Assembly: GCA_963771175.1 (NCBI GenBank) | Contig: CAVYSY010000040.1 | Span: forward strand, 64,001-128,000 | DNA from: an uncultured delta proteobacterium | GTDB lineage: Bacteria; Myxococcota; Myxococcia; Myxococcales; Myxococcaceae | Reading direction: 5' to 3' | Length of the DNA stretch: 64,000 nt | Part shown: positions 44,542 to 52,290 of the stretch, piece by piece | Position numbering within the stretch: the stretch's first letter is position 1 | Layout of the letters: every line of letters starts with the position of its first letter | Translations under genes and position numbers: made by a program | Notes under the pieces: model-generated | Databases searched by the model: none | What the model was told of the DNA's origin: nothing | The model's input: only the letters and a program-made list of their open reading frames with translations

Positions 44542-46769
44542 ATGGACGTCTCGAGCCTGATGGCGACGGTGGGCACCGTCGCGCTCCTGGGAGTCGCGGG
44601 AGCGGTGATGCTCGTCGCGAGGCAGCGCAGACAGGCGCGGGACACCGCTGCCTGGACGCACACGGTGGAGCGGGGACAGCACATTCCCCCCTCGCTGCAC
44701 CCGGTCATCGATCCGGACATCTGCATCGGCAGCCTCTCGTGCCTGAAGGCCTGCCCCGAGGGGGACATCCTCGGCATCGTGGACGGCGTGGCGACGCTCG
44801 TCGACGCCCGGCCACTGCATCGGCCACGGCCGGTGCGCGGCCGAGTGCCCGGTGGACGCCATCAAGCTGGTGTTCGGCACCAGTGAGCGCGGGGTGGACC
44901 TGCCGGAGGTGGACGAGTTCTTCGAGTCCAGCCGGCCCGGCGTGCACGTCGTCGGCGAGCTGGGCGGCATGGGGCTCATCCGCAACGCCACCATCCAAGG
45001 GCGCCAGGTCGCCGAGCGGCTCGGGAAGGTGATGGAGCGCAAGCAGGAGCCGGGCGTAGTGGACGTGGTCATCGTCGGCGTCGGGCCCGGCGGGGCTGGC
45101 CACGGCGCTCGGGTGCCGCGCCGCGGGCCTCTCCTTCCGCGTGCTCGATCAGGAGACGGTGGGCGGCACCGTCGCCCACTACCCGCGCCAGAAGCTCGTC
45201 ATGACCGAGCCCGTCGAGCTGCCGCTCGTCGGGAAGTTCGGCAAGCGGCACATCTCCAAGGAGGAGCTGCTGGCCACCTGGAAGAAGGCCATCGTCCAGG
45301 CGGACATCCGCGTGGAGGAGCGCACCCAGGTCACCGGCATCGAGGGCCAGGACGGCGGCTTCACGGTGGAGACGAGCCAGGGGCAGGTGAGGGCGCGCAA
45401 GGTGGTGCTGGCCATCGGCCGGCGCGGCACCCCGCGCAAGCTGGGCGTTCCCGGCGAGGAGCTGCCCAAGGTGACCTACCGGCTCATCGATCCCGCGCAG
45501 TACGAGGGCGCCGGGTGCTGGTGGTGGGCGGCGGCGACGCGGCGCTCGAGGCGGCCATCCAGCTCGCCGAGGAGACGGACGCCGAGGTGGCGCTCTCCTA
45601 CCGGGGCGAGTCCTTCGGCAAGTGCCGCGACGCCAACCGCAAGAAGGTGCAGGAGCTGTCCGAGCGGGGGCGGCTCTCCGTGTTGATGAAGTCCCAGGTG
45701 AAGCGGATCCTCCCCGAGCGGGTGCAGCTCGATCTGGACGGGCGGGAGATGGCGCTGCCCAACGACTTCGTCATCGTCTGCGTGGGTGGCGAGCTGCCGA
45801 TGGAGTTCCTCAAGAAGGTGGGCGTGGGGCTGAAGCGCTACCATGGGGAGGCGCCCGGTGAGGCCTCGAGCCGAGCCACGCGTGCGCCGCGGGAGCGCGA
45901 AGGGCGAGGAGGAGCGCAAGAACCGGCGCTTCGCCTTCGCCCTCTTCGCCCTGGGCGCGCTCATCGTCGCGGGCCTGGCGGTGGTGGGCTGGGAGTACTA
46001 CCTGCTGCCGAAGGCGGAGCGGCTGAAGTCGCCGCTGCACGAGGCGCTGCGGCCGGCGGGCGTCTGGGGGCACGGCGTGGGCATCGTCGCCACGCTGTTC
46101 ATGCTCTCCAACTTCCTCTACGCCGTGCGCAAGCGCTGGAGTCGGCTCAAGGGCATCTCCTCCATCCGCCGCTGGCTCACCTTCCACCAGTTCGTGGGCT
46201 TCATGAGCCCGCTGGTCATCGCCTTCCACGCGGCCTTCCAGTCCAACAACCTGCTGGCCACCACCACGGCGGGTTCGCTGCTGGTGGTGGTGCTCACGGG
46301 CATCGTCGGCCGCTTCGTCTACGGGCTGGTGCCCACCCAGGATGGGCGAGCGCTCGAGTACTCCGACGTGGTCGGCCGCTTCGAGCGACTCAAGGTGCGT
46401 CTGGAGCCCACGCTGGGCCAGGTGTCCGAACCGGAGGCGCTGCGCGGGGTGCTCGCCCTGGCCACCGCTCCCGCCCCCCGAGTGTGGCTGCCGCTGCTCT
46501 TCGTGCGCATGCCCTTCGAGTCCCTCTCCATCCGCCTGCGCATCGCCCAGGTGCGGCGCGCGTTCCCCTCCGCCCAGGACTACCAGGAGTTCCGCGAGGA
46601 CTTCTTCCGCCTGCTGCGCCTGCGCACCCAGGTGGGCTTCTACTCCAGCCTCAAGCGGCTGCTCGGCGGCTGGCGCGTCTTCCACGCCGTGCTCGCCGGC
46701 TTCCTGGTGCTCATCCTCACCGTGCACATCCTCATCTCCCTGTACCTCGGCTACAGGTGGATTCTGTGA
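44542..46769 (+). CDS. Fusion of TM, dicluster ferredoxin, FAD/NAD(P)H TrxB-like oxidoreductase and His-bearing membrane domain (frameshifts near 44808, 45090, 45510, 45890)
   Basis: CIGSLSCLKACP and CIGHGRCAAECP; VVIVGVGP, GRRGTPRKL, VLVVGGGDAALEAA; membrane part WLTFH..IAFH..WRVFH..LTVH. No stop codon after the reductase, which implies fusion. Confidence 0.72.
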
Positions 46770-50509: not shown

Positions 50510-52290
50510 TGCGCGTCCCTGGATTGCTGCTGCTCTGTCTGCTCGCCGGCCCGGTGGTTTCCGCCGCGCCCCGGAAGTCCCCTGGCTCCCAGGTGCGGCG
50601 CTCGAAGAAAAAGGCGGCCCCCTCCAGGGTTCCCGCCAGCGCGCCAGTGAAGGGCGCGGAGGACCCGTCGGCCACACCCGAGCGGCCCCCTCCGCCCGCC
50701 CGGGCCACGCGTGGGTCCCCGCCGGCCTGGGGCTCCGTCACCTACGTCAGCGGGGGGCGGGTGTACCTGGATAGGGGGCGGGACGAGGGACTGGAGAAGG
50801 GCCTCGAGCTGGCGCTCTCGCGCCGGGGACGGCCGGCCGGCGCCTGCCGCATCGAGTGGGTGGCGGACCACAACGCCGCTTGCCAGGGACAGGGCCTGCG
50901 CACGGGAGATCGCTTCGACCTCCCCCGGCGCGAGGTGGCCTCATCCGCTCCCGCGAGACCCCAGCCCGCGTCCACGGCCGAGCTCACCCGCCGACGCGCC
51001 CTGCTGGAAACGGCCCCCCAGCCACTCACCGAGTACGCGGCGGGGACGGTCGGGAGCACGCGGCGCTCGCCGGTGCAGGTGGAGCTCGGGCATACGAGCT
51101 GGGTGTCCACCACCGCGGGCGACTTCCACCAGGAGCGGGTGGACGTGTCGCTCAGGGAGATGCCGCTGGGGGCGGGGTTCCGCCTGTCCTTCGATGCCAG
51201 CGCGCTGGCCTGGACGGGGCGCCCGGAGGACTTCCGCTCGCCCTCTCGCACGGTGGCACGGCTCTACGTGCGCGAGGGCGAGGTGACGCACCGCGAGCCC
51301 GGTCAACACCTCGCGCTGGCGGTGGGGCGCGTGTGGCCCTGGTACGTGCCGGGCGTGGCGATGTTCGACGGAGCGCAGGTGGGCTGGCGCAGCAAGGACG
51401 GCGGGCTCGAGGTGGGAGGCTTCGGCGGCGGAGTGCCGGACCCGGTCACGCTGGAGCCCAGTTTCCGGCGCCTGGCGGCGGGTGCCTACGTGGCGGGACG
51501 GTACACGGGGGCCTCGGGAAGCACGCTGCGCCTGCTGCAACACGAGGCCCGGGTGTCCTTCATGTCCGCGCCCGAGTACGGCAACCGTGTGGAGGCCGAG
51601 GGACGGGTCCGCGCCTGGCTGGGAAGCTCCACGGACGTGGGCGCCTGGGTGCGACTGGGGCTGGGAGATGCGATGGCTCCGGCGGCCGTGGATGCGGCGC
51701 GGCTGGACGTGGACGTGCGCCCCTCGGAGGCGTGGAGGCTCTCCGGTCGCGTGCGGTACACGGGGACGATGGCGCTCGACGTCCCCGCGCCGCTGGACGA
51801 GCTGTCGCTCCGGAGCCGCTCGGTGAACGCGGACGTGACGGCCACCTGGCAACCGGTGCCGTCGCTCTCGGCCGGTGTCACGGGCCTGCTGGCGAGGGAC
51901 ATCGAGACGGCGCTCGCGAGGCAGCTCGTGGGCCCGGAGTTGGCGTTCCCCCGCCTCTTTGGAAACCGGGGAGGACTCTCGCTGGGCTACCTGGAGGAAC
52001 TGGGCTGGATGCGAGGCCGGAGTGCCCATGTGCAGGCGGTGCTGCGGCCCGCCGAGCCGTTGCGGCTGCTCGGGCGCGTGAGCTGGTTCGAGGAGCAGTC
52101 GGTGGACGGGTCCGTGGAGATGCCGTCCACGCGCGAAGTGGGCCTGTACGCCAGCACCGAGTACTCCCCGGCGCGCTGGCTGTCGGTGCGCGTCTCGGTG
52201 CTCGCCCGCGTCGCCGCCAACGAGCTGGCCGAGGACACCGCCCCGCCCGGCGGGCTCGTGGGCCACGCGAGCCTGGCCGGTTCGTTCTGA
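50509..52290 (+). CDS. Putative outer-membrane beta-barrel protein
   Basis: TGATG overlap; signal peptide; small N-terminal domain then many amphipathic beta-strands; C-terminal HASLAGSF (terminal Phe). Confidence 0.72.
   Translation: MRVPGLLLLCLLAGPVVSAAPRKSPGSQVRRSKKKAAPSRVPASAPVKGAEDPSATPERPPPPARATRGSPPAWGSVTYVSGGRVYLDRGRDEGLEKGLELALSRRGRPAGACRIEWVADHNAACQGQGLRTGDRFDLPRREVASSAPARPQPASTAELTRRRALLETAPQPLTEYAAGTVGSTRRSPVQVELGHTSWVSTTAGDFHQERVDVSLREMPLGAGFRLSFDASALAWTGRPEDFRSPSRTVARLYVREGEVTHREPGQHLALAVGRVWPWYVPGVAMFDGAQVGWRSKDGGLEVGGFGGGVPDPVTLEPSFRRLAAGAYVAGRYTGASGSTLRLLQHEARVSFMSAPEYGNRVEAEGRVRAWLGSSTDVGAWVRLGLGDAMAPAAVDAARLDVDVRPSEAWRLSGRVRYTGTMALDVPAPLDELSLRSRSVNADVTATWQPVPSLSAGVTGLLARDIETALARQLVGPELAFPRLFGNRGGLSLGYLEELGWMRGRSAHVQAVLRPAEPLRLLGRVSWFEEQSVDGSVEMPSTREVGLYASTEYSPARWLSVRVSVLARVAANELAEDTAPPGGLVGHASLAGSF

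What the first reader, a model, noticed from the sequence alone, without database searches (positions are those of the whole stretch)
44542..52290. Candidate complete trans-envelope electron conduit: flavo-ferredoxin/membrane fusion, 42 heme sites and a beta-barrel in one operon
Seen: five co-oriented genes, three of the four junctions overlapping (GTGA, ATGA, TGATG). They encode a ferredoxin-NAD(P)H flavin reductase-membrane fusion, exported cytochromes with 20 and 10 CxxCH, a lipoprotein-like cytochrome with 11+1 motifs, and a protein ending in a barrel-type Phe. Established: porin-cytochrome systems (Shewanella MtrCAB, Geobacter Pcc) use decaheme + barrel + surface multiheme, fed from quinol by separate proteins such as CymA. 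Inference: this operon links the cytoplasmic NAD(P)H pool directly to the cell surface, with cytochrome repeats that do not look like MtrA. That would be unexpected in a lineage usually regarded as aerobic predators. It could serve metal reduction, reductive iron uptake or electron uptake.
Basis: partly seen in the sequence, partly recalled or inferred. Interest (0 to 1): 0.9.

Follow-up and report, generated by a model that had tools for sequence, protein, structure and literature searches.

The report
Myxobacterial NADPH-to-surface heme electron wire
Five genes in a myxobacterium appear to build a continuous chain of flavin, iron-sulfur clusters and about 44 hemes from the cell's NADPH pool to its outer surface; it is a fused, untested relative of a predicted electron conduit known from iron-oxidising bacteria.

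Summary
The operon is real: heme counts (20, 10, 11+1) and gene junctions are exact, and the last gene models as an unplugged barrel of about 22 strands. Gene 1 is not one ORF here. It has four single-base indels, probably assembly errors: near-identical strains lack them, and relatives encode an intact ~745-aa fusion.

The system is a variant of the predicted, untested PCC3 porin-cytochrome cluster (He et al. 2017). Its di-heme membrane domain and periplasmic cytochrome are homologous to those of PCC3-type clusters. It differs in three ways:
- the membrane domain is fused to an NADP(H)-type Fe-S flavoprotein (a separate neighbour in 17 of 18 Burkholderiales clusters);
- the barrel belongs to another family;
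- the 20- and 10-heme proteins appear joined head-to-tail by a spare histidine (7 natural 30-heme fusions).

Gene 1 matched 139 of 401 Myxococcota genomes, and Anaeromyxobacter dehalogenans encodes it, but here the cassette is an island missing from 17 congeners. Best reading: quinone-independent export of NADPH electrons to outside acceptors; direction and acceptor are untested. This scan has noted the split cassette several times on other DNA. New variant of a known kind; interest 0.6.

The parts
43515..52285 (.). Accessory island of about 8.8 kb (regulator + five-gene operon) between a glycoside-hydrolase-like gene and the plsX/fab region (flanking gene names recalled, not from a call)
   Evidence: Flanks are adjacent or nearly so in congeners: G012 alignments stop at 43514 and resume at 52285 on the same base; G006 gap 25 bp; G004 about 0.5 kb; G015 about 2.8 kb of other DNA. 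G+C about 70%, like the flanks.
43723..44370 (+). Membrane-anchored LuxR-type regulator, inside the island but not a conserved part of the cassette
   Evidence: Pfam GerE 23.2 bits (cut-off 23.5), NCBIfam LIC13292 family 73.7 (cut-off 200); no hit to it in the 32 Myxococcota loci scanned.
44463..44492 (+). Sigma-70-like promoter match (TTTACA-18-TAGAAT) ahead of the operon
   Evidence: 1 found versus 0.2 +/- 0.4 in shuffles; consensus match only.
44542..46769 (+). Gene 1: N-terminal membrane anchor, atypical two-cluster ferredoxin, circularly permuted TrxR/Bdr-type FAD/NADP(H) domain, five-helix di-heme b membrane domain. Interrupted here by four single-base indels (near 44805, 45080, 45509, 45873)
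   Evidence: Frames and Pfam hits of the separate pieces; intact orthologue P0051, 743 aa; conservation in 111 full-length homologues; model and fold searches; indels absent from near-identical strains.
46766..48595 (+). Exported 20-heme cytochrome c built of triheme FxH..FPLxGxH..CxxCH..CxxCH.DxH..CxxCH repeats; ends with a spare conserved His600
   Evidence: 20 motifs in the window and in all 31 orthologues found, 21 conserved non-motif His; 33% identical over 608 columns to a 24-heme PCC3-type periplasmic cytochrome.
48592..49479 (+). Exported decaheme cytochrome c that continues the repeat of the 20-heme protein; candidate barrel-associated segment
   Evidence: 10 motifs and 9 invariant non-motif His in 27 aligned sequences; fused to the 20-heme protein in 7 of 31 loci.
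49499..50509 (+). Lipoprotein multiheme cytochrome (11 CxxCH + 1 CX4CH); the variable, optional, probably outermost member
   Evidence: Lipobox pattern in 12 of 15 orthologues checked, and a Cys-containing signal visible by eye in two more; 7 to 70 motifs in relatives, absent from some loci.
50509..52290 (+). Outer-membrane beta-barrel of about 22 strands with no plug in the model, plus a small N-terminal beta domain; unnamed family
   Evidence: AlphaFold2 model, strands 189-592; all listed structural matches are membrane barrels; no Pfam or NCBIfam family for the window protein; 782 clusters at E<=1e-10.

Best explanation
The operon encodes a quinone-independent electron conduit across both membranes, most likely running outward. 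Shown from sequence, conservation or models: the parts, their cofactor-binding residues, their co-occurrence and the fusion. Inferred steps: (1) the cytoplasmic flavin domain of gene 1 takes a hydride from NADPH and passes single electrons through its two Fe-S clusters to the inner heme b (His549/His715 in P0051) and the outer heme b (His563/His729); (2) the periplasmic 20-heme and 10-heme proteins lock head-to-tail, His600 of the first ligating the first heme of the second, giving a 30-heme wire; (3) the decaheme end meets or enters the barrel and hands electrons to the lipoprotein cytochrome, whose length varies by lineage; (4) the acceptor is an extracellular oxidant such as Fe(III)/Mn(IV) minerals or chelates, humics or another cell. 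Moving electrons from NADPH out across the inner membrane would spend, not build, membrane potential (established bioenergetics, as for NOX; recalled). So the likeliest job is a redox vent during oxygen limitation or an extracellular reductase, not energy-conserving respiration by itself.
For: Fusion intact in about 104 listed matches in 95 genomes (hand count of the rows) and in 111 full-length homologues, all with both WxxxHx13H motifs. Lys/Arg clusters after the anchor helix, before helix 1 and in loop 2 put the Fe-S/flavin domains in the cytoplasm. NADP(H)-type fingerprint GGGD[A/S]A and [S]YR...R conserved, with no CxxC disulfide site in the aligned stretch. Closest solved folds are Bdr/YpdA, TrxR and TrxR-type ferredoxin-NADP reductases. 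Of 32 Myxococcota loci with the fusion, 31 have the 20- and 10-heme cytochromes and 29 the barrel. In 17 of 18 Burkholderiales PCC3-type loci the same flavoprotein is the divergent neighbour of the membrane protein, and it is co-operonic in Bacteroidota, Calditrichota and Gemmatimonadota loci. His budget 21+9 = 30 for 30 hemes, with 7 natural 30-heme fusions, some with linkers of only 19-20 residues between motifs. [quoted passage not shown]
Against: No experiment exists on this or any PCC3-type system in what I read (bioRxiv 10.1101/2025.02.27.639646 calls PCC3 functionally unverified). Nothing here shows a cytochrome inside the barrel or the lipoprotein on the outer face. One locus has the fusion with no cytochrome within 20 kb, and two lack a recognisable barrel nearby (L082; L077, L078). 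The lipoprotein cytochrome is missing from several loci. A tenth His (His263) is present in 63% of decahemes and could make the inter-subunit ligand unnecessary there. PCC3-type clusters sit in Fe(II) oxidisers, where inward flow was proposed. Pfam's ferric-reductase model scores only 18 bits against a cut-off of 28. Four indels in 1.1 kb is denser than the background seen in flanking genes (about 4 in 25 kb).
Confidence: 0.55

Rival explanations
1. Quinone-linked conduit (the 2017 PCC3 model): the membrane domain trades electrons between the heme wire and the quinone pool, and the flavoprotein is a side branch (for example NADPH to quinone), so the wire serves ordinary respiratory electron export.
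For: He et al. proposed a quinone-active cytochrome b for this domain. MsrQ, a ferric-reductase-family protein, binds ubiquinone. Invariant His511 and Asn524 in helix 2 have no assigned role and could line a quinone site. Gene 1 is present in a respiratory Fe(III) reducer.
Against: Two hemes on opposite faces plus an almost obligate, and in Myxococcota covalently fused, NAD(P)H flavoprotein are what a direct transmembrane relay needs; a quinol oxidase needs neither. In MsrQ the quinone was found to be an acceptor, not the donor.
Confidence: 0.2
2. Periplasm-limited role: NADPH charges a large heme store or supplies periplasmic reductases. The barrel exports or anchors a cytochrome or passes a soluble substrate (for example a metal chelate), but electrons do not cross the outer membrane.
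For: Capacitor roles have been suggested for very large cytochromes (PMC2330069, PMC11495043, passages). The lipoprotein cytochrome is optional. The cassette occurs in Bacteroidota that I recall as aerobes, such as Emticicia. The barrel has fewer strands than I recall for MtrB.
Against: The barrel is kept in 29 of 32 loci, next to the decaheme or the lipoprotein cytochrome. The model has no plug domain. The lipoprotein varies from 7 to 70 hemes while the periplasmic part stays fixed at 20+10, which fits a fixed periplasmic span and a free outer reach.
Confidence: 0.15
3. Inward conduit: electrons from an extracellular donor (Fe(II), a cathode, another cell) run to NADP+ to supply reducing power.
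For: PCC3 was defined in Fe(II) oxidisers. One PCC3 membrane-protein gene rose when Sideroxydans CL21 oxidised iron.
Against: Inward transfer to NADP+ works against both the redox gap and the membrane potential unless the donor is very low in potential (established bioenergetics, recalled). In ES-1 one PCC3 cluster was largely undetected and the other did not change with substrate (PMC11429942). Most carriers seen here are heterotrophs (recalled).
Confidence: 0.1
4. Strain-level rival, independent of the family's function: gene 1 is truly broken in this strain and the island is decaying.
For: Four indels within 1.1 kb, more than the local background. The raw reads of this assembly were not seen. 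Related strains carry a 340-bp deletion in the island's regulator.
Against: The lesions are all single-base indels, with no nonsense change. The same kind of lesion breaks 3 of 29 flanking ORFs compared with a congener, among them a FabG-like gene (name recalled), and splits a second nrfA copy. Near-identical strains from 3 studies are intact. The other four genes are intact.
Confidence: 0.15

Closest known systems
PCC3 porin-cytochrome c cluster (He et al. 2017, PMC5566968; Gallionellaceae pangenome, PMC9900912); predicted only
   Same: Gene order membrane protein - periplasmic cytochrome - outer cytochrome - porin (as Slit_1446-1449). Five-helix membrane domain with two WX3HX13H motifs and an (S/T)GxxG motif, homologous to the ~300-aa proteins of PCC3-type clusters (99.4%, E 2e-21). 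Homologous repeat-built periplasmic cytochrome of about 20 hemes. 26-29 residues per heme.
   Different: Membrane domain fused to an Fe-S flavoprotein, which the passages I read do not mention for PCC3. Barrel not detectably homologous to 14 porin-position proteins of Burkholderiales clusters (1% probability). Extra fixed decaheme that continues the 20-heme repeat. Third cytochrome is a lipoprotein of another repeat type. Found in Myxococcota, whereas the 2017 text lists Alpha-, Beta- and Gammaproteobacteria.
Shewanella MtrCAB / MtoAB / PioAB and Geobacter OmbB-OmaB-OmcB (Pcc), ExtABCD
   Same: Plan of barrel + decaheme + lipoprotein multiheme cytochrome.
   Different: No sequence membership: TIGR03508 gives 52 bits versus 192 for the 20-heme protein and no hit for the decaheme or the barrel. 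The Mtr barrel (6r2q_B) is only a generic match (Z 13.9, rmsd 7.2, 337 aligned, 8% identity, rank 27). These systems are fed from quinol by separate proteins (recalled). The published Anaeromyxobacter pcc cluster is a two-gene, 12-14-heme unit (PMC4245776), not this one.
NADPH oxidase / ferric reductase (FRD) superfamily, and MsrQ with Fre
   Same: [quoted passage not shown]
   Different: The dehydrogenase part is an N-terminal, TrxR/Bdr-type domain with two Fe-S clusters, not the C-terminal FNR-type domain of NOX (NOX layout recalled). The acceptor would be a multiheme wire rather than O2, a metal ion or MsrP.
Bdr/YpdA bacillithiol disulfide reductase and TrxR-type ferredoxin-NADP reductases
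   Same: Best sequence and fold matches of the flavin domain (E 2e-41; Z 21.2, rmsd 9.9, 260 aligned).
   Different: TIGR04018 scores 68 and 52 bits on the two halves versus 340. The segment that follows the NADP domain in that family appears before the FAD motif here (weak support, E 0.11). It is membrane-bound and fused to a ferredoxin and a heme b domain.
'Cytochrome + HX13H membrane protein + redox protein' clusters mostly without porin, and PCC4 (He et al. 2017)
   Same: An HX13H membrane protein next to a redox protein and a multiheme cytochrome. Some redox proteins listed are 412-425 aa, near the 430-460 aa of the split flavoprotein.
   Different: Their identity with this flavoprotein was not tested. 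They have 7-18 hemes and mostly no porin; PCC4 has 4-, 5- and 10-heme cytochromes.

Membership tests
PCC3 | Inner-membrane protein with five helices, two WX3HX13H motifs and an SGXXG motif | tested here: met
   Both motifs in 111 of 111 full-length homologues; TGxxG in 110, SGxxG in 1; five helices after the flavin domain.
PCC3 | Membrane protein homologous to that of PCC3 clusters | tested here: met
   Profile comparison 99.4%, E 1.9e-21, 252 columns. The reference set was recognised by gene order and heme counts, not by published accession.
PCC3 | Membrane protein is a stand-alone gene of about 300 aa | tested here: not met
   Fused into a 740-770 aa protein in this lineage.
PCC3 | Repeat-built periplasmic cytochrome of about 21-27 hemes | tested here: met
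   20 hemes; 199-256 bits to 15 of 15 PCC3-type 24-heme proteins versus 46-77 bits to 8 outer cytochromes used as control.
PCC3 | Extracellular multiheme cytochrome (10-35 or more hemes) | tested here: inconclusive
   A 12-heme lipoprotein holds that position, but scores only 29-40 bits to PCC3-type outer cytochromes; surface exposure cannot be tested here.
PCC3 | Porin of the PCC3 family | tested here: not met
   A barrel is present, but profile comparison with 14 porin-position proteins gives 1% probability; it matches instead barrels of Calditrichota, Bacteroidota, Gemmatimonadota and Polyangiaceae loci (E 8e-23 to 3e-6 in a small database).
PCC3 | Gene order membrane protein, periplasmic cytochrome, outer cytochrome, porin | tested here: met
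   Same order, with a decaheme inserted.
MtrCAB/MtoAB/PioAB | DmsE/MtrA-family decaheme cytochrome | tested here: not met
   Decaheme P0002 has no NCBIfam hit; P0001 scores 52 bits versus 192.
MtrCAB/MtoAB/PioAB | MtrB/PioB-family porin | tested here: not met
   No Pfam or NCBIfam hit for P0004, and no porin family among the 3 weak Pfam hits to 41 homologues.
Geobacter Pcc / ExtABCD | OmbB- or ExtB-family porin with partner cytochromes | tested here: inconclusive
   No reference sequences were compared. Library scans gave no hit for the barrel and 20 bits versus 200 for ExtN/ExtO; whether those libraries hold OmbB or ExtB models was not checked.
NOX/ferric reductase (FRD) | Two bis-His heme sites in an FRD membrane domain | tested here: inconclusive
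   Four invariant His in HX13H pairs, but PF01794 gives 18 bits versus 28. The membrane domain was not folded and searched alone, and whole-model searches were filled by the flavin domain.
NOX/ferric reductase (FRD) | C-terminal FNR-type FAD/NADPH domain | tested here: not met
   The flavin domain is N-terminal to the heme domain and of TrxR/Bdr type.
Bdr/YpdA | Whole-protein match to TIGR04018, soluble enzyme | tested here: not met
   68 and 52 bits on the separate pieces versus 340; membrane-bound fusion.
Any porin-cytochrome conduit | Cytochrome seated in the barrel and electron transfer across the outer membrane | not testable with these tools

The most novel reading that the evidence does not exclude
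A one-polypeptide NADPH:cytochrome transmembrane oxidoreductase, a NOX analogue assembled from a permuted TrxR-type flavoprotein, feeds a 30-heme wire stitched by an inter-subunit histidine and a barrel of an unnamed family. It would give roughly a quarter to a third of Myxococcota, including aerobic soil forms that carry it as an island, a quinone-independent route for extracellular electron transfer, and would show that the whole PCC3 class is wired to NAD(P)H rather than to quinones.
Probability: 0.4. Interest if true: 0.85.

Novelty: new variant of a known kind. Interest (0 to 1): 0.6.

Why it matters
The characterised porin-cytochrome conduits I know of draw on the quinone pool (recalled), and PCC3 was modelled the same way. 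The fusion is direct genomic evidence that the PCC3-type membrane protein works with an NAD(P)H flavoprotein, which would make this a different kind of extracellular electron transfer: an outlet for cytoplasmic reducing power. The fused form is also the easiest member to test, because one purified protein holds the whole path from NADPH to the periplasm. Named organisms carry it: A. dehalogenans and Myxococcus sp. RHSTA-1-4 the fusion, Emticicia oligotrophica the split form on a plasmid. If right, many soil and sediment myxobacteria and Bacteroidota not counted as electroactive could reduce minerals or humics.

Tried and rejected
No solved structure matches the 20-heme protein by sequence (0 hits). 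No RNA holder was listed for the stretch, which says nothing on expression. No convincing terminator was found (2 versus 2.9 in shuffles).

Considered and rejected: membership of MtrCAB, Bdr/YpdA and NOX proper (membership table); the LuxR-type gene as a conserved regulator (no hit in 32 loci); foreign composition as a sign of transfer (none); a TonB-dependent receptor for the last gene (its top structural matches include such barrels, but the model and sequence have no plug domain). The ESM Atlas gave only unnamed clusters for the barrel.

Literature: ten searches found no description of this cassette in Myxococcota or of a flavoprotein partner of PCC3. The library lacks most subscription journals. 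The Anaeromyxobacter cytochrome proteomics paper (Nissen et al. 2012) was seen only as a citation. Supplementary Table 4 of PMC5566968 gave only its legend, and the text held for the supplements has no Myxococc/Anaeromyxobacter entry, but tables that are pictures could hide one. Supplements of the bioRxiv papers are closed; the four peat 'EET' architectures were not compared with this cassette.

In one search a stricter first look was used, so tallies are a floor; the 139 include partial and flavoprotein-only matches.

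
Full report
OBSERVATION. The four downstream genes are as described: 46766-48595 (20 CxxCH), 48592-49479 (10), 49499-50509 (11 plus one CX4CH) and 50509-52290 (no motif, ends in Phe), with GTGA, ATGA and TGATG overlaps and one 19-bp gap. 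Gene 1 is not one ORF: codon bias switches frame four times between 44542 and 46769. Its pieces match 4Fe-4S, pyridine nucleotide-disulfide oxidoreductase and, weakly, ferric-reductase membrane models.

THE BREAKS IN GENE 1. Against an orthologous locus (G024, about 85% identical DNA) the breaks are single-base indels. Contigs from four public runs were laid on the stretch: X1, X2 and X4 (three studies) show all four corrections and X3 the three it covers; one X1 contig spans 44341-51243 with 105 substitutions and exactly four gaps. The assembly has such lesions elsewhere: 3 of 29 congener ORFs align in two frames, a fourth alignment stops beside a one-base insertion, and a second nrfA copy is in pieces. 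Assembly error is the likeliest cause. But four indels in 1.1 kb exceed that background and this strain's own reads were not seen, so real decay keeps about 15%. The window is G000:C40, a 9.8-Mb, 82% complete genome; the nearest named homologues are Myxococcaceae.

GENE 1. The intact orthologue P0051 is 743 aa. In the 111 full-length proteins among the 120 listed homologues (624 found), six Cys, His95, His511, His549, His563, His715, His729, Trp545 and Trp711 are invariant, and both WxxxHx13H motifs are present in 111 of 111. The ferredoxin is atypical: the second ligand position is Ser in 104 and Cys in 7 for one motif, and His in all 111 for the other. The flavin domain matches Bdr/YpdA, TrxR and TrxR-type ferredoxin-NADP reductases. 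It has the GGGD[A/S]A and YR...R pattern that I recall as NADP(H)-preferring, and shows no CxxC in the aligned stretch. The part that closes the FAD domain in that family seems to have moved in front (residues about 121-160; weak hits to glutathione reductase and lipoamide dehydrogenase, best E 0.11). Charge bias puts the Fe-S and flavin domains in the cytoplasm, one His pair near each membrane face. The AlphaFold2 model (mean pLDDT 79) agrees with six membrane helices in all.

CYTOCHROMES. The 20-heme protein has exactly 20 motifs in the window and in all 31 orthologues found, and 21 conserved non-motif His; the decaheme has 10 motifs and 9 invariant non-motif His, with a tenth at 63%. The gene boundary falls inside a triheme repeat: the first protein ends with the DxH that ligates the next heme (19 of 19 split loci printed), and the second begins with that heme. 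In 7 of 31 loci the two are one ORF, four of them with 19-30 residues between the flanking motifs and no second signal peptide. I infer a head-to-tail 30-heme wire. The third cytochrome is a lipoprotein with 7-70 motifs in relatives, sometimes placed upstream or absent.

BARREL. The model has about 22 strands over residues 189-592, no plug, and a small N-terminal beta domain. All listed structural matches are membrane barrels, none standing out (best Z 17.9, rmsd 5.7, 354 aligned). The family is unnamed but large: 782 clusters at E<=1e-10.

DISTRIBUTION. Gene 1 matched 139 of 401 Myxococcota genomes at E<=1e-60 (a floor, including partial and flavoprotein-only matches, and one unpublished genome, G209). 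By hand count about 104 listed matches in 95 genomes are full-length without stops. It is in 43 of 64 genomes of family f7 and 43 of 184 of this genome's family, but in 0 of 17 congeners and 1 of 32 and 0 of 21 in two large sister genera. Named carriers include A. dehalogenans 2CP-C and 2CP-1, Anaeromyxobacter sp. K and Myxococcus sp. RHSTA-1-4, whose fusion and barrel accessions lie four apart. I examined 32 loci (all 7 non-self hits and 25 chosen, mostly on long contigs): 31 have the 20- and 10-heme genes and 29 the barrel. In this genome the regulator plus operon is an 8.8-kb island at a site that is empty or otherwise filled in 4 of 4 congeners, with normal G+C; gain from another myxobacterium and repeated loss are both open. 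The genome also encodes NrfHA and cytochrome c assembly genes, so it is not limited to oxygen respiration on paper. Outside the phylum the two halves of gene 1 are separate neighbours in Bacteroidota, Calditrichota, Gemmatimonadota, Acidobacteriota and Proteobacteria, for example on Emticicia plasmid pEMTOL02 with ccsA, 23- and 40-heme cytochromes and a related barrel. In a tree of 56 flavoprotein domains the 27 fused forms are one clade (support 0.935, midpoint root, no formal test), sister to a split Polyangiaceae form; this suggests a single fusion within Myxococcota.

RELATION TO KNOWN SYSTEMS. He et al. 2017 (PMC5566968; passages, section 16, supplements 1, 5 and 7, and a search of all eight supplements) define PCC3 as porin, extracellular and periplasmic multiheme cytochromes and a ~300-aa five-helix membrane protein with two WX3HX13H motifs, modelled as quinone-active; the main text has no 'ferredoxin' or 'pyridine nucleotide'. 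A search of 301 Burkholderiales genomes found 18 with such a membrane protein. All 18 loci have the ~24-heme cytochrome next to it, most also an outer cytochrome and a porin-like ORF in PCC3 order, and 17 have the Fe-S flavoprotein as divergent neighbour. The membrane domain (99.4%) and the 20-heme protein are homologous to theirs; the barrel is not detectably so (1%). It therefore works like, and shares two parts with, PCC3, but fails two membership features (stand-alone membrane protein, porin family), so I file it as a variant, not a member. PCC3 remains untested (10.1101/2025.02.27.639646, PMC11429942, PMC9900912; passages). It is not Mtr or the published Anaeromyxobacter pcc. MsrQ/Fre is the mechanistic precedent for cytosolic NAD(P)H feeding a ferric-reductase-type membrane protein (PMC12525009, passages). 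Other papers seen as passages or sections gave context only: PMC2330069, PMC4245776, PMC7399161, PMC11495043, PMC11475568 and 10.64898/2026.05.27.727921.

MECHANISM. Most likely NADPH to FAD to two Fe-S clusters to two b hemes to the 30-heme wire to the barrel and lipoprotein cytochrome to an outside acceptor (0.55). Parts, ligands, linkage and fusion are shown; cofactor loading, contacts, surface exposure, direction and acceptor are inferred. Outward flow from NADPH would spend membrane potential, so a redox vent or extracellular reductase is more likely than stand-alone respiration. Rivals: quinone-linked conduit (0.2), periplasm-limited store or reductase (0.15), inward uptake (0.1).

EARLIER FINDINGS. 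The scan has noted the split cassette and its flavoprotein on other DNA several times. I reached the PCC3 reading before those look-ups and tested the flavoprotein link myself. A word search for the fused Myxococcota form returned nothing; a report on this same stretch is withheld.

VERDICT. Real, conserved and not found in the papers searched as a Myxococcota system; a new variant of a predicted kind. What it adds is the fusion, the head-to-tail histidine link and the separate barrel family, which together make the NAD(P)H-versus-quinone question testable with one protein. Interest 0.6.

Noticed in passing
window 44001-44340: Contigs in runs X1, X2 and X3 skip these 340 bases, inside the LuxR-type gene, while keeping the operon; some strains have lost most of the regulator.
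   Followed up: no
window 22580, 23718, 56377, 58072: Single-base insertions relative to congeners break or truncate flanking genes (PhoU-, FabG- and FabF-like by recall): gene calls on this assembly need care.
   Followed up: partly
L109:2189-4205 (G000:C29) and G000:C33:358637-359641: An intact nrfH-nrfA pair whose NrfA has five CxxCH motifs and no CxxCK, and a second nrfA copy in several frames.
   Followed up: partly
L082:12325-14562 (G248:C15): A second, full-length copy of the fusion with no cytochrome gene in the 20 kb around it or the adjoining 15 kb read; it may serve a distant wire or another acceptor.
   Followed up: partly
L124:1-9264 (G306:C171): Downstream of the barrel lie a 14-heme protein and a lipoprotein-like cytochrome with at least 70 motifs, cut by the edge of the stretch.
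   Followed up: no
L085:5063-18588 (NC_018749.1): The split cassette sits on a plasmid of Emticicia oligotrophica with its own ccsA, a divergent ECF-type sigma factor gene and a GW-domain gene; Calditrichaceae and Flavobacteriaceae loci have a similar-sized gene after the cassette.
   Followed up: partly
L028:3236-8505: A different arrangement in a Rubrimonas MAG: an 808-aa flavoprotein with a C-terminal ferredoxin-like match, a weakly matching membrane protein and a decaheme protein; it resembles the 'cytochrome + membrane protein + redox protein' class of the 2017 paper.
   Followed up: no
G000:C22:119359-120963 and C30:50521-53013: Other multiheme proteins of this genome: a decaheme (534 aa) and an octaheme ORF without the FPLxGxH repeat.
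   Followed up: no
window 38856-41468 (-): An 870-aa exported-looking protein with a Pro-rich C-terminal tail just upstream of the island, matched in only some congeners.
   Followed up: no
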